Shown here piece by piece: positions 1-8,159 of a stretch of DNA of 8,159 bases (its first letter is position 1; every line of letters starts with the position of its first letter). The DNA comes from a virus (lineage: Duplodnaviria > Heunggongvirae > Uroviricota > Caudoviricetes). The position numbers were made by a program, and so were the translations under genes. The notes below the pieces were generated by a model that searched no databases, had not been told where the DNA came from, and saw only the letters and a list, made by a program, of their open reading frames with translations. The DNA lies in the IMG/VR virus record IMGVR_UViG_2671180710_000005; one strand, written 5' to 3'.

Positions 1-25
1 TCTCCAGGATTCCCGGGGCGATTCA
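1..25 (-). mobile_element. Outermost 25 bp of a probable IS3-family insertion sequence (IS629/IS1203-like end); the IS body would lie left of the window
   Basis: Positions 1-25 (TCTCCAGGATTCCCGGGGCGATTCA) are the exact reverse complement of 8135-8159. On the minus strand it reads 5'-TGAATCGCCCCGGGAATCCTGGAGA, which begins TG and, from memory, differs by one base from the IS629 terminal repeat. Family assignment is unverified. Confidence 0.55.
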
Positions 26-28
26 GTT

Positions 29-385
29 TTAATTGTGCTTTATTCCTTCAAGCGTTGCCTTCATACCAACCAAAGAAATGTTTAGCTCTCCAACTTTCTC
101 AGGGCTATATAATTCAGAATGAAGCCAATATTCTGATTTATCTAAACATCTTTTAGCCAGCTCTCGATCAAAGTCTACGACTTGGGAAGACGCTTCATAC
201 CAAAGCCTATAAAGTTTTTCTTCTTCGTTTGGGTTATTAGGCTCACCACGTTTTAATTTTTCAGTATATAAAATTGTTGAACAAATCGCAGGAGTTAATC
301 CAGTGATTGCCCTCTGCCGCAGATCGGATTTGTTTGTTATCCACCCCAACAGACGATCTCCCATCCATGTGATAATTGTATCCAT
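29..385 (-). CDS. Hypothetical protein, 118 aa, no recognisable family
   Basis: ORF with ATG at 385-383 and TAA at 31-29. Plausible SD (AAGAAGGG) 7 nt upstream of the ATG. The stop lies 3 bp from the IS-like end. No motif recognised. Confidence 0.5.
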   Translation of the reverse strand: MDTIITWMGDRLLGWITNKSDLRQRAITGLTPAICSTILYTEKLKRGEPNNPNEEEKLYRLWYEASSQVVDFDRELAKRCLDKSEYWLHSELYSPEKVGELNISLVGMKATLEGIKHN

Positions 386-846
386 GCTTTAGCCCTTCTT
401 AGTAAATAGTGTGTAGGGCGACTGAAGGACCGAGTTTATGCTTTTTCGCATTGCTTTCAGTTAGTACACCGGTATCGCACCGGAAACAATCCTACGGCAA
501 ATTGGTTGTCTGACCTCTCGGTTTTTCGTGCATTAACCGATACCCACTACAGTCTCGGCGAAAGCTGCACACCCCCAGGGTGTACTGGTAGCACTCGGCA
601 CAGCCTAGCACGCCACTTTCTTCTCACTATCCAGTCTAATTTTATCCCCTAGTCAGACACTCAGATGTAGTGCTCCGCAGCGGCATGCGGGGGAATACAA
701 AAACTCGGACAAAATTGGGCCCTCCTTTTTGAATCACTCGCGGGGATGTAGTTATTAATACATGGAAAAAGATCTGTTTTCAAATCCAACATTATATGGT
801 TTCAATACCACGGGGTGGCTATGTGTTTCTCATTGTTAATTGGAAT

Positions 847-1170
847 CTACTGTAATCGATCCGAACGTAAATGCGGCAAAACTCGACTCCACTTATCATC
901 CTGCCACGGCCGGAATTTTACATGTGCCGTTTCTCTGGCAAGGATTGCCTGTGCCTTATTGAGTATCTGGGGATATTCTTGCTCGATAGAAGTGAAGCGA
1001 CCAGCTTCACGATGCTCCGCAACCTGAAGAAGAGGAGTAACGTTCTGGTAGGTAATTAACATCACATTCCCTGCTCGCCATAACCAGGCGAGTGTGCAAA
1101 GTTCGTTATCAGTGAATTGTTTTGTGATTGGGGATTGTTGAACTGCTAGAACGAGAACGCCAGCATCCAT
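847..1170 (-). CDS. Hypothetical protein, 107 aa, no recognisable family
   Basis: ORF with ATG at 1170-1168, preceded by AGGGA 6 nt upstream. Same strand as the flanking genes. The overlapping plus-strand ORF 815-1027 is Cys-rich and looks spurious. Confidence 0.45.
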   Translation of the reverse strand: MDAGVLVLAVQQSPITKQFTDNELCTLAWLWRAGNVMLITYQNVTPLLQVAEHREAGRFTSIEQEYPQILNKAQAILARETAHVKFRPWQDDKWSRVLPHLRSDRLQ

Positions 1171-1281
1171 TGGCAGTCCCTATAGTAAAACCATAGCTCA
1201 GGACGCTTCGTTCAGGATAGATAATTTTATTGTACTTACCTAACTTTCTTACTATAGCACGGTTGAAAAAGTGATTATTAC

Positions 1282-2808
1282 TCAAAAATAAACCTCACCA
1301 TCAACCATATATTTGAGAGCACTTATCGCCTGCTGGGCGGATATTACTTTCATTAAAGGATAGTGTTTAAAAACAATGCCATTCATAAAATAGATATCAC
1401 AGCTTTTATTATCCGTATTAATTATGATTTTTTCGAATGTTTTATAGGCAAGTGTACGGCATAACTCTCGTCCATTTTTACTGGTTAAGTCAATAGCATA
1501 AAAATCACTGAATGAATTTACACCTTTACTCTTCAAAGTTTTCAATGATACCGAAGCCCTTCTTAATTCCTTATCTAATAGTCTTATTTTCTCTGCTATA
1601 GCGGTAACTTCAGGCGCGACAGACAATGCAACGATTAAATTATTAATTTTCATCTGAAGCTCAATAATTTTTAACTCTAAAGTTTCATTAGCATCTTTCT
1701 TGTTTTCAACTGGTTGAATTTTGCTACAATTAAAAAGCAATTCATTAATGATATTATAATCAACCAAATCTCTTTTTATTGATGGCCTGTCACATCGATG
1801 TAATCTTCTCATCGGACAAACATAATAGCCATGCAAACTTCCAGATACCGCATGAACAATCATGGTATTACCACAAGCCTCACACTTCATAACTGTTCGA
1901 AGTAGATTTATTAGCATAGGATTCTTGCTACTATTGCTAATACCAAAAGGTGCCAACCGAATTTCCTGTACAGCGTAAAACAAATCATCTGATATGACTC
2001 TGGGATAATAGCCAGCGATTTCACTTATCCCTTTCCCTCTTGCACGATATGAAGGTACGCATATACCTATCAGAGCTTTATTCGCTAATAATTTTTCAAT
2101 TACAGAAGGTCCCCATGCACTTTCTTTTCCTGAGAAATTCTTTACAGCATGATCATTTAAATACTTGGCTATTGCATTCAATGAGCGCCTTTCCATCCTG
2201 AGTTTAAAAATTAGCTCAATAGTTTTCACCCTGTCGGGGTCTGGAACAAAAGCCGTTCTTTTGTCATCTAAGGAGAGCCATCTCGGACAAGACGCCGTCA
2301 TAATCGTACCTGATTCCAGTGCATCCTGCCGTTTTTTCTTCCATGATAATTTAACCCGACTTGACTTTATCTCGCTTTCTTCATTTGCCCTTTGTGCTAT
2401 AAGTATGGCTTTTATTAATGAATATGGCTCATTCAAAGAGTCAATATTATAGACTGTATTGTCGCAAAGAGTTATAACATCAATACCGTGATTCAAAATT
2501 AATTTCAGACGTTCAATCGCTTCACCGACTTTTTCTCTTGAAAGTCTGTCCAGACTTTCAACTAACAATGTAGTTCCTGGCAATATATAACCATGCTCTA
2601 TAGCATCTAAAAATTCCGAAAAAGCTCCTGATTGTGCATGCTTTCCTTTGAATGCACTTAATCCTAAATCTTCATATGTTATGGTATCAAGATAATAATC
2701 ACTATTTACCTTTAACCATTCAGCAATAAGTCTTCTCTGTCGGTTTAATGAGTCACCAGACATCTGACCTGGTGATGAAAATCGCATATATGCTATGGCT
2801 TTTTTCAT
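1282..2808 (-). CDS. ybcK: Large serine recombinase (resolvase/invertase catalytic domain plus zinc-ribbon and coiled-coil C-terminal region), 508 aa
   Basis: N-terminal AIAYMRFSSPGQ matches the serine-recombinase catalytic motif (resolvase-like xxGYxRVSTxxQ). The C-terminal part has a cysteine cluster (CEACGN...YYVCP...HRCD) typical of the large-serine-recombinase zinc ribbon. Length and position next to emrE match E. coli DLP12 ybcK as I recall it. AT-rich codon usage. Confidence 0.85.
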   Translation of the reverse strand: MKKAIAYMRFSSPGQMSGDSLNRQRRLIAEWLKVNSDYYLDTITYEDLGLSAFKGKHAQSGAFSEFLDAIEHGYILPGTTLLVESLDRLSREKVGEAIERLKLILNHGIDVITLCDNTVYNIDSLNEPYSLIKAILIAQRANEESEIKSSRVKLSWKKKRQDALESGTIMTASCPRWLSLDDKRTAFVPDPDRVKTIELIFKLRMERRSLNAIAKYLNDHAVKNFSGKESAWGPSVIEKLLANKALIGICVPSYRARGKGISEIAGYYPRVISDDLFYAVQEIRLAPFGISNSSKNPMLINLLRTVMKCEACGNTMIVHAVSGSLHGYYVCPMRRLHRCDRPSIKRDLVDYNIINELLFNCSKIQPVENKKDANETLELKIIELQMKINNLIVALSVAPEVTAIAEKIRLLDKELRRASVSLKTLKSKGVNSFSDFYAIDLTSKNGRELCRTLAYKTFEKIIINTDNKSCDIYFMNGIVFKHYPLMKVISAQQAISALKYMVDGEVYF

Positions 2809-2993
2809 GGTGACACCTGCTAACGTATGCTTTTATAAACCTTAGTGGTGGGATATAATTTTTGTTTAATTTTTATTTAAAAAAACAATTAAGGTCACAT
2901 TATCTTGAATATACAACAATAATCGTATTGCAATTTTCTTACGCCATAATCTTGAAAGCACAAAAGAACACATAAAAAAATAAAGACATTAAC

Positions 2994-3033
2994 AAAAAGC
3001 ATAAAACGAGGCTCATATAAATATAAGAGCCTC
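2994..3033 (-). terminator. Putative intrinsic terminator downstream of emrE
   Basis: 7-bp stem GAGGCTC/GAGCCTC (3008-3014 and 3027-3033) with a 12-nt AT loop. On the minus strand it is followed by a T-rich tract (GTTTTATGCTTTTT), about 30 nt after the emrE stop. Confidence 0.45.
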
Positions 3034-3064
3034 CATATTTTAGTCGTTTAGAAACAAATTATTT

Positions 3065-3397
3065 TTAATGTGGTGTGCTTCGTGACAATAGATTAATAAC
3101 CAACACACCGGCACAAATCAACATCATGCCTATAATGGCTGGCAGGTCCAGCCGTTGGCCGAAAAGTCCCCATGACAGTAAGCTAATCAGGACAATACCG
3201 ACTCCTGACCAGATAGCATAAGCAATCCCTGTAGGAATATAAGCCAGCGTCTGAGCTAATAACCAGAATGATGCACAATAACAAATAATTGTACCAACAG
3301 ATGGCCATAACCGTGTAAAACCTTCTGAAAACTTCATTAAGGTTGTACCAATGACCTCTGCAAGTATTGCACCACCAAGATAAATATAAGGGTTCAT
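3065..3397 (-). CDS. emrE: EmrE, small multidrug resistance (SMR) family efflux transporter, 110 aa
   Basis: Translation MNPYIYLGGAILAEVIGTTLMKFSEGFTRLWPSVGTIICYCASFWLLAQTLAYIPTGIAYAIWSGVGIVLISLLSWG... is near-identical to E. coli EmrE as recalled. The track ORF starts 18 codons earlier; I place the start at the MNPYIY methionine (ATG 3397-3395). Confidence 0.9.
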   Translation of the reverse strand: MNPYIYLGGAILAEVIGTTLMKFSEGFTRLWPSVGTIICYCASFWLLAQTLAYIPTGIAYAIWSGVGIVLISLLSWGLFGQRLDLPAIIGMMLICAGVLVINLLSRSTPH

Positions 3398-3464
3398 AGC
3401 ATATTCTTTCCTGTTCAAACTGGAGAGAATTGTACTACAGTTTGAACTCAACTCACCTGTTTCA

Positions 3465-3767
3465 TCATTGTGTACCCATTGATGTTCTTTTATATACCCT
3501 CAATACCCGTTTCATCGCGGCACTCTGGCGACACTCCTTAAAAATCAGATTCGTGCTCACCTTTCCTTCCCGTTCTTCTCTGGTAGCGAACCGGTAATAC
3601 ACCGTTCGCCAGACCTTACCATCAACGACCAGGATTCCTGCCCGCGCCATTTTAGCCGCAGCCTGATTTATGCTGGTTACGGTTGCGCCTGTTACCGCGG
3701 CAACGTCCTGTGCACAGAAGCTCTTATGCGTCCCCAGGTAATGAATAATTGCCTCTTTGCCCGTCAT
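3465..3767 (-). CDS. ren: Ren-like protein (lambda ren homolog), 100 aa
   Basis: MTGKEAIIHYLGTH..FCA.DVAA.TGATVTSINQAAAKMARAG...GKVWRTVYYRFATREEREGK closely matches lambda Ren as recalled. Its start codon overlaps the P stop (ATGA). Confidence 0.85.
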   Translation of the reverse strand: MTGKEAIIHYLGTHKSFCAQDVAAVTGATVTSINQAAAKMARAGILVVDGKVWRTVYYRFATREEREGKVSTNLIFKECRQSAAMKRVLRVYKRTSMGTQ

Positions 3768-4465
3768 ACACTTGCTCCTTTCAGTCCGAACTTAGCTTTA
3801 ATTTCTGCGATCTTCGCCAGAGCCTGTGCACGATTTAGAGGTCTACCGCCCATAACAGGAAGTTGTTTTACTGGTTCAGGTATCGTCTCACCACGGTTAA
3901 TTCGCGCTGTCATACAGGTCAGTTCATCGGCAGCCTTGCGCCGTAATTCCGCGTCAGTCAGCGCATTGGCCCGCATGTTCTGGTACAAGTTGGTAACCAA
4001 CCAGTAATGCGCGTTCGATTTCCACGGATAAGACTCTGCATCCGGATACAGGCCACGCTTCCGGCAATACTCGTAAACCATATCAACCAGCTCGCTGACG
4101 TTTGGCAGCCCGGCGTTAACAGATGCTTCTTCCCGGCACCAGGCGACAAACTGCCCGGGTGATGGCAGGAATGGTCGATTCTGCCGACGGGCTACGCGCA
4201 TTCCAGCGTTAACCTGTTCCATTGTGGTGATCCCGTTTTCCCGGAAAGCCAGAACCCACTGGCGGCGGATTTCGTTCAGTTCATTCTGGTCACGGTTAGC
4301 CAGGCTCGCCGGGAAAGTTGCCAGTAACTGGCTGAACACACCGTTGATGATCTGCGCTACCTGCTGTACCTGTGGCTTTTCGTCGTACTGTTCCGGCATG
4401 TTGTTGGCGATCCGGCGCATCTGCTCACAGTCAAAGTTAACCATCTGTGCGGCGATGTTTTTCAT
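3764..4465 (-). CDS. P: Lambda-type replication protein P (DnaB helicase loader), 233 aa
   Basis: MKNIAAQMVNFD.EQMRRIANNMPEQYDEKPQVQQVAQIINGVFSQLLATFPASLANRDQNE... is near-identical to lambda P along its length as recalled. Its start overlaps the O stop (ATGA at 4462-4465). Confidence 0.9.
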   Translation of the reverse strand: MKNIAAQMVNFDCEQMRRIANNMPEQYDEKPQVQQVAQIINGVFSQLLATFPASLANRDQNELNEIRRQWVLAFRENGITTMEQVNAGMRVARRQNRPFLPSPGQFVAWCREEASVNAGLPNVSELVDMVYEYCRKRGLYPDAESYPWKSNAHYWLVTNLYQNMRANALTDAELRRKAADELTCMTARINRGETIPEPVKQLPVMGGRPLNRAQALAKIAEIKAKFGLKGASV

Positions 4466-5391
4466 AGCTCCACCCCGTAAATCCAGTCAGTGTTCGTCAG
4501 GTCGAGTTTTGGTTTGCCGGCTGTCACGCCAGCCTGTTGCTTGTTTCGGTTGATTTCGAGCTGGGTCCACTTGTCGCGGAGTTTGGCCGGACTTAGCACG
4601 TTACCGGACCAGAAGTTGTCCTGGCATGCCCAGCGGAACAGCACGCACATGTCGCGGTGGTTACGTCCGTCACGTTCACGCATCAGGCGGATATCGTTAG
4701 CCCACCCTGCAAAATTCGGTTTTCTGGCTGATGGCGCGATGGTCTTCACCATGTCAAACATCCACTCTGCGGCGGTCAGGTCTTCTGCTGTCCCCCACTT
4801 GCTGCCGCTCTGAATTGCAGCATCCGGTTTCACCACAGGAAGATCGTTTTCTGGTTGGTCAGAGGATTCGCCAGAATTCTCGGACGAAAAAGGTTTTATA
4901 TTGTCTTTTGTTAGTTTGTCTTTTGTGTTTACCTGATTCGGGTAAACGCCTTTACCTGATTTGGGTAAACTTTTTTTACCTGATTCAGGTAAATTTACCT
5001 CTTTCAGGTAAACTTTATTTTTCTTACCTGATTCGGGTAATGTTGACCATTCACTGACCACATTATTAATGCCGGTATTCCGCCCGCTCTGAATAAAAAT
5101 CCCACGCTTTACCAGAACACTTTTTGCAGCAGAACACTTGTGCGGCAATATCCCGGTTAATTCGGAAAGTTGCTCGTTGCTAACCCAATCCAGTTTTTTA
5201 TTAAAGCCATATGTTTTGCGCATGACAGCCAGAAAGACCAGAAGCTGGTGCTGTGTTAATCCGGCCAGCATCACAGCTTCCAGCAACTCATTTGCAATGC
5301 GCGTATAACCATCATCGAGATCTGCCACGCGCGGCTCCTTTTGTGCCGCATCCGGCACTGGAAAATTGAATATCTCAGCAGTGTTTGCCAT
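4462..5391 (-). CDS. O: Lambda-type replication initiator O, about 309 aa
   Basis: The C-terminal ~120 aa (EWMFDMVKTIAPSARKPNFAGWANDIRLMRERDGRNHRDMCVLFRWACQDNFWSGNVLSPAKLRDKWTQLEINRNKQQAGVTA.KPKLDLTNTDWIYGV) matches lambda O; the N-terminal domain is O-like but diverged. Start placed at MANTAEIFNF (ATG 5391-5389), which aligns with the lambda O N-terminus and has a GGGAGG SD. The track ORF extends 30 codons further to 5481. Confidence 0.88.
   Translation of the reverse strand: MANTAEIFNFPVPDAAQKEPRVADLDDGYTRIANELLEAVMLAGLTQHQLLVFLAVMRKTYGFNKKLDWVSNEQLSELTGILPHKCSAAKSVLVKRGIFIQSGRNTGINNVVSEWSTLPESGKKNKVYLKEVNLPESGKKSLPKSGKGVYPNQVNTKDKLTKDNIKPFSSENSGESSDQPENDLPVVKPDAAIQSGSKWGTAEDLTAAEWMFDMVKTIAPSARKPNFAGWANDIRLMRERDGRNHRDMCVLFRWACQDNFWSGNVLSPAKLRDKWTQLEINRNKQQAGVTAGKPKLDLTNTDWIYGVEL
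4929..5042. repeat. Origin of replication iterons (ori-lambda type) inside the O gene, with adjacent AT-rich region
   Basis: Five roughly 19-bp palindromic iterons of the form TTACCTGATTCGGGTAAAC start at 4929, 4952, 4976, 4995 and 5024. An AT-rich stretch lies at about 4885-4928, downstream in the O reading direction, as in the lambda ori. Confidence 0.8.
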
Positions 5392-5477
5392 AATTCCTCC
5401 CGCAATGAGTGTGTTACGATTTGCACCTGAAAGTCGGTTCTGTTCCAGCAGACCGGCTTTCGCCATTTCTGAACCTG

Positions 5478-6017
5478 TCATATCGCCCCCAGCATGGTAG
5501 TAACCATCGCCATCAATGGACCAGCCAGATCTGGGTCCACACGAAACATCGACACAATACCTTCACTAATTTCCTTCAGTTTCTGGTGGCGTGGTGCGTT
5601 GAGAATGACAGCCTGTTTTGCCTCACTGAGTTCCTTTTCCATTTCAGCCAACCTAGCCATGAAGCTATCCTGCTCAACCAGGTAACCGCGATATTCCAGC
5701 GGTAGTACCGCCAGAATTGCCGGGGTCAGTTCACGCACGTTATTTCGGTATTTTTCAGAATCGAATTTGTTATCGAGGAAGCGGAACAGCTTCTGGCGTG
5801 CACGGCTGACATCATCAGGGAAATCGATGGTGCCGCCGCCCTGCTCCCGATACTCATTCACAATGAGTGTGGCAACGACATCCTGATTATCTACAGCCGA
5901 CCAGGCGCGGACGGCATCACGGATTTTTTCGTGGCCTGGCACCTGTTTTGTTTGAGAACGATTTATCACCGCAGTCGGGCTAAATCCGCTAGTCTGTTGG
6001 TATGTAAGTGGTTGCAT
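5478..6017 (-). CDS. 179-aa protein in the cII position; possibly YdaT-family (CII functional analogue of Rac/CP-933P-type prophages)
   Basis: Sits between cro and O where lambda has cII, but is about twice the size of lambda CII and unlike it. Segments EYREQGGG and LTPAILAVLPLEYR resemble what I recall of YdaT; this is unverified. Strong SD (AAAGGAG) upstream of ATG 6017-6015. Confidence 0.6.
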   Translation of the reverse strand: MQPLTYQQTSGFSPTAVINRSQTKQVPGHEKIRDAVRAWSAVDNQDVVATLIVNEYREQGGGTIDFPDDVSRARQKLFRFLDNKFDSEKYRNNVRELTPAILAVLPLEYRGYLVEQDSFMARLAEMEKELSEAKQAVILNAPRHQKLKEISEGIVSMFRVDPDLAGPLMAMVTTMLGAI

Positions 6018-6065
6018 AATTGACTCCTTTAGTTTGAATTGACTGTTAAGTTGATTGCTTATTGT

Positions 6066-6074
6066 TAAAGAGCG
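6066..6074 (-). promoter_or_regulatory. boxA-like antitermination motif (CGCTCTTTA, continuing AACAA) in the pR transcript downstream of cro
   Basis: Minus-strand CGCTCTTTAACAATAAGCAATCA matches the boxA consensus CGCTCTT(T)A and resembles rrn boxA (GCTCTTTAACAA). No clear boxB hairpin follows. Confidence 0.35.
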
Positions 6075-6086
6075 TGAAATGGAAAT

Positions 6087-6317
6087 TTAAGCTGCGTTCT
6101 TTTCGGTGTGTGGAAACAACTTCGGAAGATCCGGGCGAATCTGGTATGCCTTCACTACTCCACCAGTAGCCGTAACAATGCTGCCGACATGTTCAGGGGA
6201 TACCTTTGCTTTGTTGTGAAGCCACTTATAGACGGCCTGCTGTGAAACTTCGCAAGCAGCGCCCAGTTTCTTTTGTGAACCAACGATATTGATCGCTGTT
6301 TTGATAGCTGGGTTCAT
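6087..6317 (-). CDS. cro: Cro-like HTH repressor (P22 Cro / YdaS-like), 76 aa
   Basis: A 76-aa protein divergent from cI across the operator region. Its pattern (GSQKKLGAACEVSQQAVYKWL...VTATGG) parallels the P22 Cro HTH. GGAGG SD 5 nt upstream of ATG 6317-6315. Confidence 0.75.
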   Translation of the reverse strand: MNPAIKTAINIVGSQKKLGAACEVSQQAVYKWLHNKAKVSPEHVGSIVTATGGVVKAYQIRPDLPKLFPHTEKNAA

Positions 6318-6330
6318 AACAACCTCCGTG

Positions 6331-6421
6331 GTTAATTTGAATCAAGATTAAAACTATGGTTGTTTTTAGTTAACAACCATTTTCGTTTGATGAAATAAAA
6401 CCTTGGTTGTACATTTGGACT
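6331..6421. promoter_or_regulatory. OR region: operators with divergent pR (toward cro) and pRM (toward cI)
   Basis: 25-bp palindrome ATGGTTGTT-N7-AACAACCAT at 6356-6380 and a further GGTTGT half-site at about 6401-6413. Candidate pR on the minus strand: -35 TTGTTA, -10 TTTAAT. Candidate pRM on the plus strand: -35 TTGATG (6387-6392), -10 TACATT (6410-6415), placing the start near the cI ATG (leaderless, as in lambda). Confidence 0.6.
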
Positions 6422-7111
6422 ATGAAAACAACACTCTCAGAAAGACTTAAAGAAGCCAGATTAGCGCGAGGCCTTACACAAAAGGCGCTTGGGGATTTGG
6501 TCGGGGTTAGCCAGGCTGCTATTCAGAAAATCGAAACAGGGAAAGCTAATCAAACAACTAAAATCGTGGAGATCGCGAACGCTTTGGGTGTGCGCGCAGA
6601 ATGGTTATCTTCTGGCGTTGGAAATATGTCAGACAGTACAGTGCAACCAATACAATCAACTGTCAGCCATTCCAAATACTTCAAGATTGACGTTCTTGAT
6701 ATAGAAGTCAGTGCTGGGCCGGGAGTCATCAACCGTGAGTTTGTAGAAGTTCTACGCTCGGTTGAGTACTCGTTTGACGATGCTCGTCACATGTTCGATG
6801 GTAGGAAGGCGGAAAATATCCGCATCATTAACGTGCGTGGTGACAGCATGTCAGGAACGATCGAACCAGGTGATCTGCTGTTCGTTGATATCACAGTTAA
6901 ATCTTTCGACGGTGATGGTATCTATGCGTTTCTGTACGACGACACAGCCCATGTAAAGCGCCTGCAAATGATGAAGGATAAGCTGCTGGTCATCTCTGAT
7001 AACAAAAGCTACTCACCGTGGGACCCGATCGAGAAAGACGAGATGAACCGGGTGTTCATCTTCGGTAAGGTTATTGGGAGCATGCCGCAGACATATAGGA
7101 AGCATGGGTAG
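6422..7111 (+). CDS. cI: CI-type phage repressor (N-terminal XRE-family HTH, C-terminal S24/LexA-like autopeptidase domain), about 229 aa
   Basis: The N-terminus (LSERLKEARLARGLTQKALGDLVGVSQAAIQKIETGK) is a classic HTH. An Ala-Gly cleavage site (EVSAGPG), a Ser in RGDSMSGTI and a Lys in HVKRLQ match the LexA/CI autocleavage module. Start set at ATG 6422; the track ORF begins at an upstream TTG at 6407. Confidence 0.9.
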   Translation: MKTTLSERLKEARLARGLTQKALGDLVGVSQAAIQKIETGKANQTTKIVEIANALGVRAEWLSSGVGNMSDSTVQPIQSTVSHSKYFKIDVLDIEVSAGPGVINREFVEVLRSVEYSFDDARHMFDGRKAENIRIINVRGDSMSGTIEPGDLLFVDITVKSFDGDGIYAFLYDDTAHVKRLQMMKDKLLVISDNKSYSPWDPIEKDEMNRVFIFGKVIGSMPQTYRKHG

Positions 7112-7232
7112 TACCAATTAAAAATTATCAACTGGGCATTGTGCTCATTCAGTAAAGAACTAATTCCTATCTTTGCTCTAGGTAGTAATATTAAGCCACC
7201 GCAATAATATCTTTACCTAACGGCGTAAGAAT

Positions 7233-7259
7233 CCCGGTCACCGTGCCGGGTTTTCTTTT
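7233..7259 (+). terminator. Putative intrinsic terminator downstream of cI
   Basis: GC-rich hairpin CCCGG-tcaccgtg-CCGGG (7233-7250) followed by TTTTCTTTT. Confidence 0.6.
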
Positions 7260-7369
7260 GCCCTCCCCTCATCACACACACCGTTAAAAAAACCACCATA
7301 ACCTCGCTTCAGTTATCGCTATGCGATTCAAGTCACAAAATAAATCCATCCTAAATACAACCAGTTATA

Positions 7370-7430
7370 TCTAAAACAACCAATAAAACAACTTTTGTTG
7401 TTGACGATAAAACAACTATAGTTTTAAATA
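7370..7430 (+). promoter_or_regulatory. OL operators and pL-like promoter
   Basis: Palindromes AACAACTTTTGTTGTT (7387-7402) and AAAACAACTATAGTTTT (7409-7425) share the GTTGTT/AACAAC half-site with OR. -35 TTGACG (7401-7406), 17-bp spacer, -10 TTAAAT (7424-7429), directed toward the early-left genes. Confidence 0.5.
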
Positions 7431-7706
7431 AGTTCATCGCAACAACACAACGATACGGCAACTACCTGATTCACCGTTGCGATGACCGCTTAGATCCGCA
7501 GTTTGAATTTCAGCAGGCTTCGGGGAGTGCGAGGGGTGAAACGGACGCGTGAACGTCGGTGTGACCAGCTGAAATTAACTCAACATTTCATACCTTAGTC
7601 GCTTCAACGAGGCGGCTTAGTTATGACAACCGGCGGCCATCCACCGCCTGAATACGCGCAGAAGTCTCTATATGTTCAGCAGCCCAGCTTACGGGCAGGA
7701 GTTTTT

Positions 7707-7913
7707 ATGGTTCATCAACATTATGGAACGCAGACCGTTAATCGAGGTGCGGTCATGCCAGGAATGCTGGTCAAACACAAAGATGGTACCTGGACTGCAT
7801 CAGCTAATTTACGCGGACGGCTTTATCTGCATCGCGGCATCGAGCGCACTTATACCCGTGATTTGCTCGTGGAAGTTTTTCTCGACGGACGCGGTAACGG
7901 CCTGAATCACTAA
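7707..7913 (+). CDS. Hypothetical small protein (68 aa from ATG 7707; the track ORF extends to 7623) in the pL operon
   Basis: AGGAG SD 5 nt upstream of ATG 7707. Codon usage is ordinary. No arginine-rich motif, so it is not an N-like antiterminator; no family recognised. The overlapping alternative frame 7672-7905 lacks an SD. Confidence 0.4.
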
Positions 7914-7988
7914 TCCCCTTTCCTGTTTTCCTAATCAGCCTGGCATTTCGCGGGCGATATTTTCACAGCCATTTTCAGGAGGTCAGCC

Positions 7989-8134
7989 ATGAACGCTTAT
8001 TACATTCAGGATCGTCTTGAGGCTCAGAGCTGGGCGCGTCACTACCAGCAGATCGCCCGTGAAGAGAAAGAGGCAGAACTGGCAGACGACATGGAAAAAG
8101 GCCTGCCCCAGCACCTGTTTGAATCGCTATGCAT
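7989..8134 (+). CDS. ea10: Ea10-like protein, N-terminal fragment (about 49 codons), cut by the terminal IS-like repeat
   Basis: [48 protein letters not shown] matches the lambda Ea10 N-terminus as recalled. Strong SD (CAGGAGG). The reading frame runs into the 25-bp terminal repeat, after which similarity ends. Confidence 0.65.
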
Positions 8135-8159
8135 TGAATCGCCCCGGGAATCCTGGAGA
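8135..8159 (+). mobile_element. Outermost 25 bp of a probable IS3-family insertion sequence (IS629/IS1203-like end); the IS body would lie right of the window
   Basis: TGAATCGCCCCGGGAATCCTGGAGA is the exact reverse complement of positions 1-25. It begins with TG, as IS3-family ends do, and interrupts the ea10-like ORF. Confidence 0.55.

What the first reader, a model, noticed from the sequence alone, without database searches (positions are those of the whole stretch)
1..25. Window is bracketed by identical 25-bp inverted repeats resembling IS3-family ends
Positions 1-25 and 8135-8159 are perfect reverse complements, which is vanishingly unlikely by chance. The sequence starts with TG and ends with CA when read outward and, from memory, resembles the IS629/IS1203 terminal repeat with one mismatch. 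The right copy interrupts the ea10-like ORF, so the repeat is not native phage DNA. If two IS copies flank the segment with the same end facing inward, the whole 8.1 kb behaves like a composite-transposon-like or IS-delimited block that could be mobilised or deleted as a unit.
Basis: partly seen in the sequence, partly recalled or inferred. Interest (0 to 1): 0.55.

Follow-up and report, generated by a model that had tools for sequence, protein, structure and literature searches.

The report
Prophage contig bounded by IS ends
The 25-base inverted repeat at the two ends of the window is real. It is the tip of a known insertion sequence (ISEc25-type, a relative of IS629) sitting on both sides of an ordinary E. 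coli prophage segment, a pattern that draft genome assemblies produce routinely.

Summary
In detail: window 1-25 is the perfect reverse complement of 8135-8159.

**What the 25-mer is.** It is the left terminal repeat (IRL) of a 1,310-bp IS3-family element.
- NCBI's PGAP annotation pipeline names its close relatives "ISEc25 family".
- It is about 83% identical to canonical IS629/IS1203, whose IRL differs from the 25-mer at one base.

**What lies between the arms.** Positions 26-8134 are the native early region of a DLP12-type lambdoid prophage.

**Left arm.** Three complete E. coli genomes match window 1-8134 at 100%. They show the left arm continuing into a full IS copy with a 3-bp target duplication (GTT).

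**Right arm.** It cuts the gam gene (not ea10) after codon 48. No complete genome among 5,426 has this junction, so it is strain-specific. Nothing beyond its 25 nt can be seen.

**Orientation.** Both arms are IRL, so the two copies are inverted. Homologous recombination between them would invert the segment, not delete it.

**Why it is ordinary.** Whole draft-assembly contigs with perfect 77-, 80- and 95-nt terminal inverted repeats made of IS629 IRL exist in IMG/VR. The architecture is a routine result of assemblies breaking inside a repeated IS.

I found no evidence for a composite transposon. The finding is ordinary and of low interest.

The parts
1..25 (-). Outermost 25 nt of the IRL of an ISEc25-type IS3-family element. 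The IS body lies to the left, outside the window.
   Evidence: In H1/H2/H3 the match to the window runs 1-8134 at 100%. The 25-mer continues into a complete 1,310-bp IS (L001 2716-4025) with orfA starting 54 nt inside the IRL.
26..28 (.). GTT, the window-side copy of the 3-bp target-site duplication of the left IS.
   Evidence: The empty site in L002 reads aaagGTTttaattg. In L001 it reads ...aaagGTT|IS|GTTttaattg.
26..8134 (.). Native early/immunity/replication region of a DLP12-type lambdoid prophage: 118-aa ORF, P22AR-C protein, ybcK recombinase, ylcJ, emrE, ren, P, O-like replication protein, ydaT-like, cro-like regulator, S24 repressor, kil-like and gam 5' part.
   Evidence: 478 complete E. 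coli genomes cover at least 80% of the window in one place. Those listed and inspected show the same gene set, and most lack both arms (matches start at 26 and end at 8134/8137).
7989..8134 (+). 5' part of gam (host-nuclease inhibitor Gam), codons 1-48 plus 2 nt, truncated by the right arm.
   Evidence: The intact 98-aa homologue in H1 scores 214 bits against PF06064. The window sequence is identical to it up to 8134.
8120..8127 (+). TGAATCGC within gam, identical to the first 8 nt of the IS terminus and 15 nt upstream of it. Possible target mimic; significance unproven.
   Evidence: Read directly. The same arrangement occurs at an unrelated ISEc25-type site, L012. It is absent from 241 canonical IS629 junctions.
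8131..8134 (.). GCAT, the probable target-site duplication copy of the right IS (inferred, not shown).
   Evidence: In CEA106S a canonical IS629 sits after the same nucleotide of gam and is flanked by GCAT on both sides. The far side of the window's right IS is not available.
8135..8159 (+). Outermost 25 nt of an IS terminus identical to the ISEc25-type IRL. The IS body lies to the right, outside the window.
   Evidence: Perfect match to the left arm. Not present at this site in any of 5,426 complete genomes. The identity of the element beyond 25 nt is inferred.

Best explanation
The window is a stretch of unique prophage DNA (the early region of a DLP12-type lambdoid prophage of E. coli) lying between two copies of a multicopy IS3-family insertion sequence of the ISEc25 type, a relative of IS629 about 83% identical to it. 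The 25-bp arms are the outermost part of that element's left inverted repeat (IRL), left attached where the sequence was cut. Most probably an assembler could not resolve the repeated IS. The left copy is an old, lineage-fixed simple insertion between the ybcN side of the prophage and the 118-aa ORF, with a GTT duplication. The right copy is a later, strain-specific event that placed an IRL after codon 48 of gam. It arose by the copy-out/paste-in transposition typical of IS3-family elements, probably from the copy 8 kb away. Because both inward-facing ends are IRL, the copies are inverted. RecA-dependent recombination between them would flip the 8.1-kb segment. Loss of the segment would need transposase-mediated adjacent deletion, which did happen from the same left copy in a sister strain. 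What is shown: the repeat, the identity and completeness of the left IS, the native nature of the interior, and the truncation of gam. What is inferred: that a full IS of the same type lies right of 8159, that it is a simple insertion with a duplication, and that the 25-nt cut is an assembly break.
For: The repeat is perfect and non-random. H1-H3 match window 1-8134 at 100% and carry a full IS flush with position 25. That IS has HTH_Tnp_1, HTH_21 and rve domains and scores 315 bits against NF033516 'IS3 family transposase'. PGAP annotates a programmed frameshift and the AL1L pseudoknot. A copy annotated 'ISEc25 family' shares the first 66 nt, including the 25-mer, and is 98.6% identical over 795 nt. 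The lineage genomes have 3 places matching this IS, so it is a repeat for an assembler. gam is intact in H1, and no complete genome has the gam|IRL junction. A genuine IS629 insertion with a GCAT duplication sits at the identical gam nucleotide in CEA106S, so this is a real transposase target rather than a chimera. In a sample of 257 IS629 ends from IMG/VR, 126 (about half) lie less than 300 nt from the end of the stored stretch. Three whole contigs have perfect IRL/IRL terminal repeats of 77, 80 and 95 nt. JNEC-KY202 has lost 11,737 bp starting exactly at the IRL tip of the left copy.
Against: Nothing beyond 25 nt of either IS is in the window, and the window's own contig was not found in any collection. 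The right-hand IS is therefore inferred from 25 nt. The same 25-mer is the orfB-side end of a different IS51-group element in L011, so the 25 nt do not uniquely fix the element or the end. A retained length of 25 nt does not match the k-mer sizes seen in the comparison contigs (77, 80, 95), and I do not know how the window was cut.
Confidence: 0.85

Rival explanations
1. The right junction was not made by a simple insertion into gam. An IS copy further to the right, with its IRL facing left, underwent transposase-mediated adjacent deletion or duplicative inversion. In that case the DNA beyond the right-hand IS is not the rest of gam, and there is no target duplication.
For: The same IS copy made exactly this kind of flush deletion in sister strain JNEC-KY202, removing 11,737 bp from the IRL tip into intD. 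In PMC3271280 only 21 of 47 IS629 sites have matching duplications, so rearranged junctions are common.
Against: A plain IS629 insertion with a GCAT duplication exists at the identical gam nucleotide in CEA106S, which shows that simple insertion at this site occurs. The closest genomes have an intact gam-bet-exo-int region with no IS to the right.
Confidence: 0.15
2. The 8.1-kb segment plus its two IS copies is a functional composite transposon that moves as a unit.
For: Two copies of one IS flank a segment that includes a drug-efflux gene (emrE).
Against: The interior is collinear with the native prophage in hundreds of genomes and was clearly not brought in by the IS pair. No complete genome has the doubly flanked unit at this or any other place. 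The outer ends would both be IRR. From established knowledge of IS911, IS3-family elements transpose through an IRR-IRL circle junction that also builds the promoter for transposase, so an IRR...IRR unit of about 10.7 kb would be a poor substrate. That last step is inference.
Confidence: 0.03
3. The right arm belongs to a different IS51-group element, or is the other end of one, that happens to share the first 25 nt.
For: In L011 the identical 25-mer is the orfB-proximal end of an element whose transposase is only 57-62% identical. The canonical IS629 IRL differs at only one base.
Against: A copy with exactly this IRL lies 8 kb away in the same genome, and the lineage has 3 places matching this IS. 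The T at position 5 is rare among E. coli copies: the ISEc25-type element is found at 95% identity or better in only about 30-40 records, against thousands for IS629.
Confidence: 0.07
4. The repeat is an artefact: an adaptor or linker, or a fold-back chimera at the contig end.
For: The repeat sits at the exact ends of the sequence and contains a SmaI/XmaI site (CCCGGG), which looks linker-like.
Against: The 25-mer continues seamlessly into the IS in complete genomes and in many independent contigs. The right junction coincides to the nucleotide with a bona fide IS629 insertion elsewhere.
Confidence: 0.02

Closest known systems
ISEc25 (IS3 family; name as used by NCBI PGAP for near-identical copies)
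   Same: The first 66 nt, including the 25-mer, are identical to a PGAP-labelled ISEc25-family copy on pUMNK88_K88, with 98.6% identity over the 795 nt present there. The full copy next to the window's left arm is 1,310 bp with orfA/orfB, a programmed frameshift and TG...CA ends.
   Different: Only 25 nt of each copy lie in the window. I could not compare with the ISfinder reference sequence itself.
IS629 / IS1203 / IS3411 group (IS3 family)
   Same: Same length (1,310 bp) and same organisation. The IRL differs from the 25-mer at one base (C5T). It has a 3-4-bp duplication, and 62% of the insertion sites surveyed in E. coli O157:H7 lie in prophages.
   Different: Only about 83-84% nucleotide identity over the whole element, so this is a distinct IS and not an IS629 isoform.
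IS-bounded contigs in draft assemblies of IS-rich E. coli
   Same: Whole contigs L025, L034 and L089 have perfect terminal inverted repeats (95, 80 and 77 nt) that end exactly at the IS629 IRL terminus, as the window's do.
   Different: The window keeps only 25 nt of the IS per side and involves the ISEc25-type element.
DLP12 defective lambdoid prophage of E. coli K-12 (ybcK-emrE-ren-P-O ... intD at tRNA-Arg)
   Same: Same gene order, including the cargo genes emrE, ybcK and ylcJ, and the same position next to tRNA-Arg and intD in related genomes.
   Different: Here gam, bet and exo are still present in the closest genomes, and two IS copies have been added.

Membership tests
IS3 family insertion sequence (left-hand element) | Imperfect terminal inverted repeats ending 5'-TG...CA-3' | tested here: met
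   IRL is TGAATCGCCCCGGGAATCCTGGAGA and IRR is TGAACCGCCCCGGTTTTCCGGGAGA, identical at 20 of 25 positions, at L001 4025 and 2716.
IS3 family insertion sequence (left-hand element) | Two overlapping ORFs (orfA, orfB) joined by a programmed -1 frameshift | tested here: met
   A 108-aa orfA and a 299-aa orfB overlap. PGAP annotates a joined CDS with 'programmed frameshift' and the AL1L pseudoknot. These lie outside the window.
IS3 family insertion sequence (left-hand element) | HTH DNA-binding domain plus DDE (rve) catalytic core, and a match to the family model | tested here: met
   PF01527 at 50 bits, PF13276 at 71 bits, PF00665 at 92 bits, and NF033516 at 315 bits against a cut-off of 160.
IS3 family insertion sequence (left-hand element) | 3-4-bp target-site duplication | tested here: met
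   GTT lies on both sides, and the empty site is seen in L002.
IS3 family insertion sequence (right-hand element) | A complete IS body and a second end beyond the 25-nt arm, with a target duplication | not testable with these tools
   The window ends at 8159. The junction is absent from 5,426 complete genomes. No locus from the viral, genome or metagenome scans holds both arms. The predicted Gam'-IS fusion protein is not in the 15-billion-protein collection.
IS629 (as the same IS species) | Near-identity to IS629. The ISfinder convention, from my own knowledge, is about 95% nt identity or more for an isoform. | tested here: not met
   83.3% identity over about 1,310 bp to the canonical copy in CEA106S, and 83.8-84.6% to copies in O157, O103 and O121 strains.
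ISEc25 (as the same IS species) | Near-identity to copies named ISEc25 | tested here: met
   98.6% over 795 nt and an identical IRL compared with a PGAP 'ISEc25 family' copy. The ISfinder reference was not available, so the name rests on the PGAP label.
Composite transposon | The IS-cargo-IS unit is found at more than one location, or is foreign to its context, with a duplication flanking the whole unit | tested here: not met
   The cargo is collinear with the native prophage, and the doubly flanked unit is absent from all complete genomes. The outer duplication is not testable.

The most novel reading that the evidence does not exclude
Two different IS51-group elements (the ISEc25-type one here and canonical IS629 in CEA106S) have inserted after the very same nucleotide of gam, in two different lambdoid prophages and in opposite orientations. 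The target carries TGAATCGC, the first 8 nt of the IS terminus, 15 nt upstream, and an unrelated ISEc25-type site (L012) has the same 8-mer 14 nt upstream. This could reflect a minor insertion pathway targeted to mimics of the IS end, like the one described for IS911, making this point in gam a predictable hotspot that inactivates the phage Red/Gam system.
Probability: 0.15. Interest if true: 0.3.

Novelty: already known. Interest (0 to 1): 0.1.

Why it matters
It matters little beyond bookkeeping. It shows that this strain's DLP12-type prophage has a second copy of a known IS in gam. That inactivates gam and creates an invertible 8.1-kb segment. It also explains why the sequence ends where it does. 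The practical lesson for the scan is that perfect inverted repeats at the exact ends of a contig-sized window in an IS-rich enterobacterial genome usually mark assembly breaks inside a repeated IS. They do not mark the boundaries of a new mobile element.

Tried and rejected
1. **Adaptor or linker origin: rejected.** The 25-mer runs on into a full IS in complete genomes and in many contigs.
2. **Finding the window's own contig, or any sequence spanning the right junction: nothing found.**
   - The right-junction 39-mer gave 0 hits in viral contigs.
   - The 25-mer in genome contigs, viral contigs and metagenome contigs gave 1, 1 and 10 loci. None had two copies and none was the window.
   - A megablast of the junction against 5,426 complete genomes found only an opposite-orientation IS629 in CEA106S.
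   - An exact look-up of the two possible Gam'-IS fusion proteins found neither in the collection.
3. **IR-like target motif as a general rule: tested and not supported.** None of 241 distinct IS629 junctions from IMG/VR has TGAAYCGC within 30 nt upstream, and control windows gave 2 of 3,097. None of the 241 is in gam. The BLAST-selected sites L018-L022 look similar only because they were selected for flank similarity. PMC3271280 likewise reports no sequence-specific target for IS629.
4. **ea10 identity of the interrupted ORF: rejected.** It is gam.
5. **Correction of my own coordinates.** I first took the IS as L001 2708-4025 (1,318 bp). Re-reading the IRR showed the element is 2716-4025 (1,310 bp). 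Searches made with the longer query carried 8 nt of flank, which explains the '1-1318' matches seen only in the same lineage.
6. **PMC2546779 (IS911 targeted insertion) is not held.** That mechanism is cited only from its title in the reference list of PMC2909936 and from my own knowledge.

Full report
**Observation.** Window 1-25 (TCTCCAGGATTCCCGGGGCGATTCA) is the exact reverse complement of 8135-8159.
- The 25-mer occurs nowhere else in the window, even with 3 mismatches allowed, and no match appeared in 200 dinucleotide-preserving shuffles.
- The next-best inverted repeats are far weaker.
- The repeat is real and not a chance event. Its length of 25 is set only by the window ends.

**What lies between the arms.** Megablast against 5,426 complete E. 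coli genomes shows that 26-8134 is ordinary prophage DNA.
- 478 genomes cover at least 80% of the window in one place. Those listed and inspected show the same gene set and order.
- The annotated genes are a 118-aa ORF, a P22AR-C protein, the ybcK recombinase, ylcJ, emrE, ren, replication proteins P and O-like, a ydaT-like protein, a cro-like regulator, an S24 repressor, a kil-like inhibitor and the start of gam. This is the early region of a DLP12-type lambdoid prophage.
- Most of the genomes listed match only 26-8134 or 26-8137, with neither arm present.

**The left arm.** Three complete genomes match window 1-8134 at 100%: JNEC-KY174, CFIAFB20190167 and FHI_NMBU_11.
- In JNEC-KY174 the 25-mer continues into a complete 1,310-bp element at L001 2716-4025. 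An earlier reading of 2708 was my error, corrected.
- The element has a 108-aa orfA starting 54 nt inside the arm and an overlapping 299-aa orfB. PGAP annotates a programmed frameshift and the AL1L pseudoknot.
- The proteins carry HTH_Tnp_1, HTH_21 and rve domains. They score 315 bits on NCBIfam NF033516 'IS3 family transposase', against a cut-off of 160.
- The arm is therefore the IRL. The IRR of the same copy is TGAACCGCCCCGGTTTTCCGGGAGA, identical to the IRL at 20 of 25 positions.
- The empty site in CB7453 (aaagGTTttaattg), compared with ...GTT|IS|GTT..., shows a simple insertion with a 3-bp duplication.

**Which IS.**
- The canonical IRL read in CEA106S is TGAACCGCCCCGGGAATCCTGGAGA.
- The whole element is only about 83-84% identical to canonical IS629.
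- Copies 98.6-98.8% identical, with the same first 66 nt, are labelled 'IS3-like element ISEc25 family' by PGAP.
- The element is uncommon. About 30-40 records carry it at 95% identity or better, whereas thousands carry IS629-type copies.
- The lineage genomes have three places matching it.

**The right arm.** It follows ...ctatgcat at 8134 and truncates a reading frame that starts at 7989.
- The intact 98-aa homologue in JNEC-KY174 is lambda-type Gam (PF06064, 214 bits), so the interrupted gene is gam, not ea10. The window keeps codons 1-48.
- No complete genome has this gam|IRL junction. The three 100%-identical genomes have an intact gam-bet-exo...intD region.
- The right-hand event is therefore strain-specific. 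Everything beyond its 25 nt is inferred.
- Caveat: in a metagenome contig (L011) the identical 25-mer is the orfB-side end of a different IS51-group element, whose transposase is 57-62% identical. The 25 nt alone do not prove which element, or which end, lies to the right. A second copy of the element 8 kb away is the most parsimonious reading.

**Is the right junction a genuine transposition product?** In CEA106S a canonical IS629 sits after exactly the same nucleotide of gam.
- That copy is in a different lambdoid prophage and in the opposite orientation, and is flanked by a GCAT duplication.
- This argues strongly against a chimeric or adaptor artefact.

**Is the coincidence a target preference?** I tested whether it reflects an IS-end-like target, because TGAATCGC (the first 8 nt of the terminus) lies 15 nt upstream at 8120-8127, and the unrelated site L012 has the same 8-mer 14 nt upstream.
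- In an unbiased sample of 241 distinct IS629 junctions from IMG/VR, none has such a motif within 30 nt and none is in gam.
- PMC3271280 also reports no sequence-specific target, 3-4-bp duplications, and 62% of IS629 sites in prophages.
- The recurrence remains an unexplained coincidence with at most weak support for a local preference.

**Why the repeat sits at the exact ends.** Scanning IMG/VR for canonical IS629 ends returned 257 end occurrences.
- 126 of them, about half, lie less than 300 nt from the end of the stored stretch, so in those cases the sequence stops a short, fixed distance inside the IS.
- Three whole contigs (L025 of 4,692 bp, L034 of 5,093 bp and L089 of 10,710 bp) have perfect terminal inverted repeats of 95, 80 and 77 nt that end exactly at the IS629 IRL terminus.
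- The window has the same architecture with 25 nt retained. The equal length on both sides is what an assembler's fixed overlap gives when a unique segment is bounded by two copies of one repeat with the same end facing inward.
- I could not find the window's source contig, so this step is inference.

**Consequences and mechanism.** Both inward ends are IRL, so the two copies are inverted relative to each other.
- Homologous recombination between inverted repeats inverts the intervening segment and does not delete it. The simple-insertion structure and the inverted isomer give the same IS-bounded contig, so the window cannot distinguish them.
- Deletion in this lineage does occur, but by a different route. 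In sister strain JNEC-KY202 the same left IS keeps its IRR junction, while its IRL tip is fused to a 5'-truncated intD. Exactly L001 4026-15762 (11,737 bp) has been removed, including the whole window interior. That is an IS-adjacent deletion.
- A composite-transposon reading is not supported. The interior is native and collinear, and the doubly flanked unit is seen nowhere else. The outer ends would be IRR/IRR, a poor fit to the IRR-IRL circle-junction pathway of IS3-family elements. That pathway is described in PMC2909936; its application here is inference.

**Verdict.** The idea of a unit mobilised or deleted as a whole is not supported. This is a known IS in a known prophage, seen through a routine assembly break, and is of low interest.

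Noticed in passing
window 4924-5040: Five or so copies of a ~19-nt unit (TTTACCTGATTCGGGTAAA), spaced 19-29 nt apart, lie inside the O-like replication gene (4462-5481, - strand). This looks like the iteron array of a lambdoid ori within the O gene.
   Followed up: no
window 6348-6366 and 7383-7427: Near-palindromic repeats (TTAAAACTATGGTTGTTTT / AAAACAACTATAGTTTTAA, plus a tandem pair ATAAAACAACTTTTGTT 24 nt apart) flank the S24 repressor gene (6422-7111). They are positioned like OR and OL operator sites of the immunity region.
   Followed up: no
L005 (NZ_AP045178.1, JNEC-KY202) 11950-12040; equals L001 4026-15762: The sister strain has lost 11,737 bp, from the IRL tip of the same IS copy to inside intD next to tRNA-Arg. 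This removes the whole region that forms the window.
   Followed up: yes
L003 390-400 / L004 3150-3160 and 4460-4470 (NZ_CP166722.1, CEA106S): Canonical IS629 is inserted after the identical nucleotide of gam in another lambdoid prophage, in the opposite orientation, with a 4-bp GCAT duplication.
   Followed up: yes
L006 2017-2041 (JALOKP010000020.1, 'Acidobacteria bacterium' MAG, 70% G+C): An exact solitary copy of the 25-mer (26 nt with the next base) has no IS3-type transposase within the 8-kb locus and no second end. By my own rough estimate about 0.001 such matches are expected by chance in 596 Gb. It could be a relic IS end or contamination; it is unexplained.
   Followed up: partly
L011 8972-10282 (WNFZ01002489.1): A different IS51-group element (transposase 57-62% identical) uses the identical 25-mer as its orfB-side end, while its other end is TGAACCGCCCCGGGTTTGTCGGAGA. 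This terminal sequence is conserved across fairly distant relatives.
   Followed up: partly
L014 192-216 and L008 2815-2839: Defective copies. In L014 the IRL is joined directly to an internal orfB segment (an internal deletion). In L008 the IS sequence stops about 55 nt after the terminus.
   Followed up: no
L025, L034, L089 (IMG/VR contigs, whole length): Whole draft contigs have perfect terminal inverted repeats of 95, 80 and 77 nt made of IS629 IRL. L117 and L134 are bracketed by IRL/IRR instead. These are useful as a control class for this kind of finding.
   Followed up: yes
window 3065-3397 and 1282-2808: The multidrug efflux gene emrE and the large serine-recombinase-like gene ybcK sit between ren and the late-region side of the prophage. 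This is the known DLP12 cargo arrangement.
   Followed up: no
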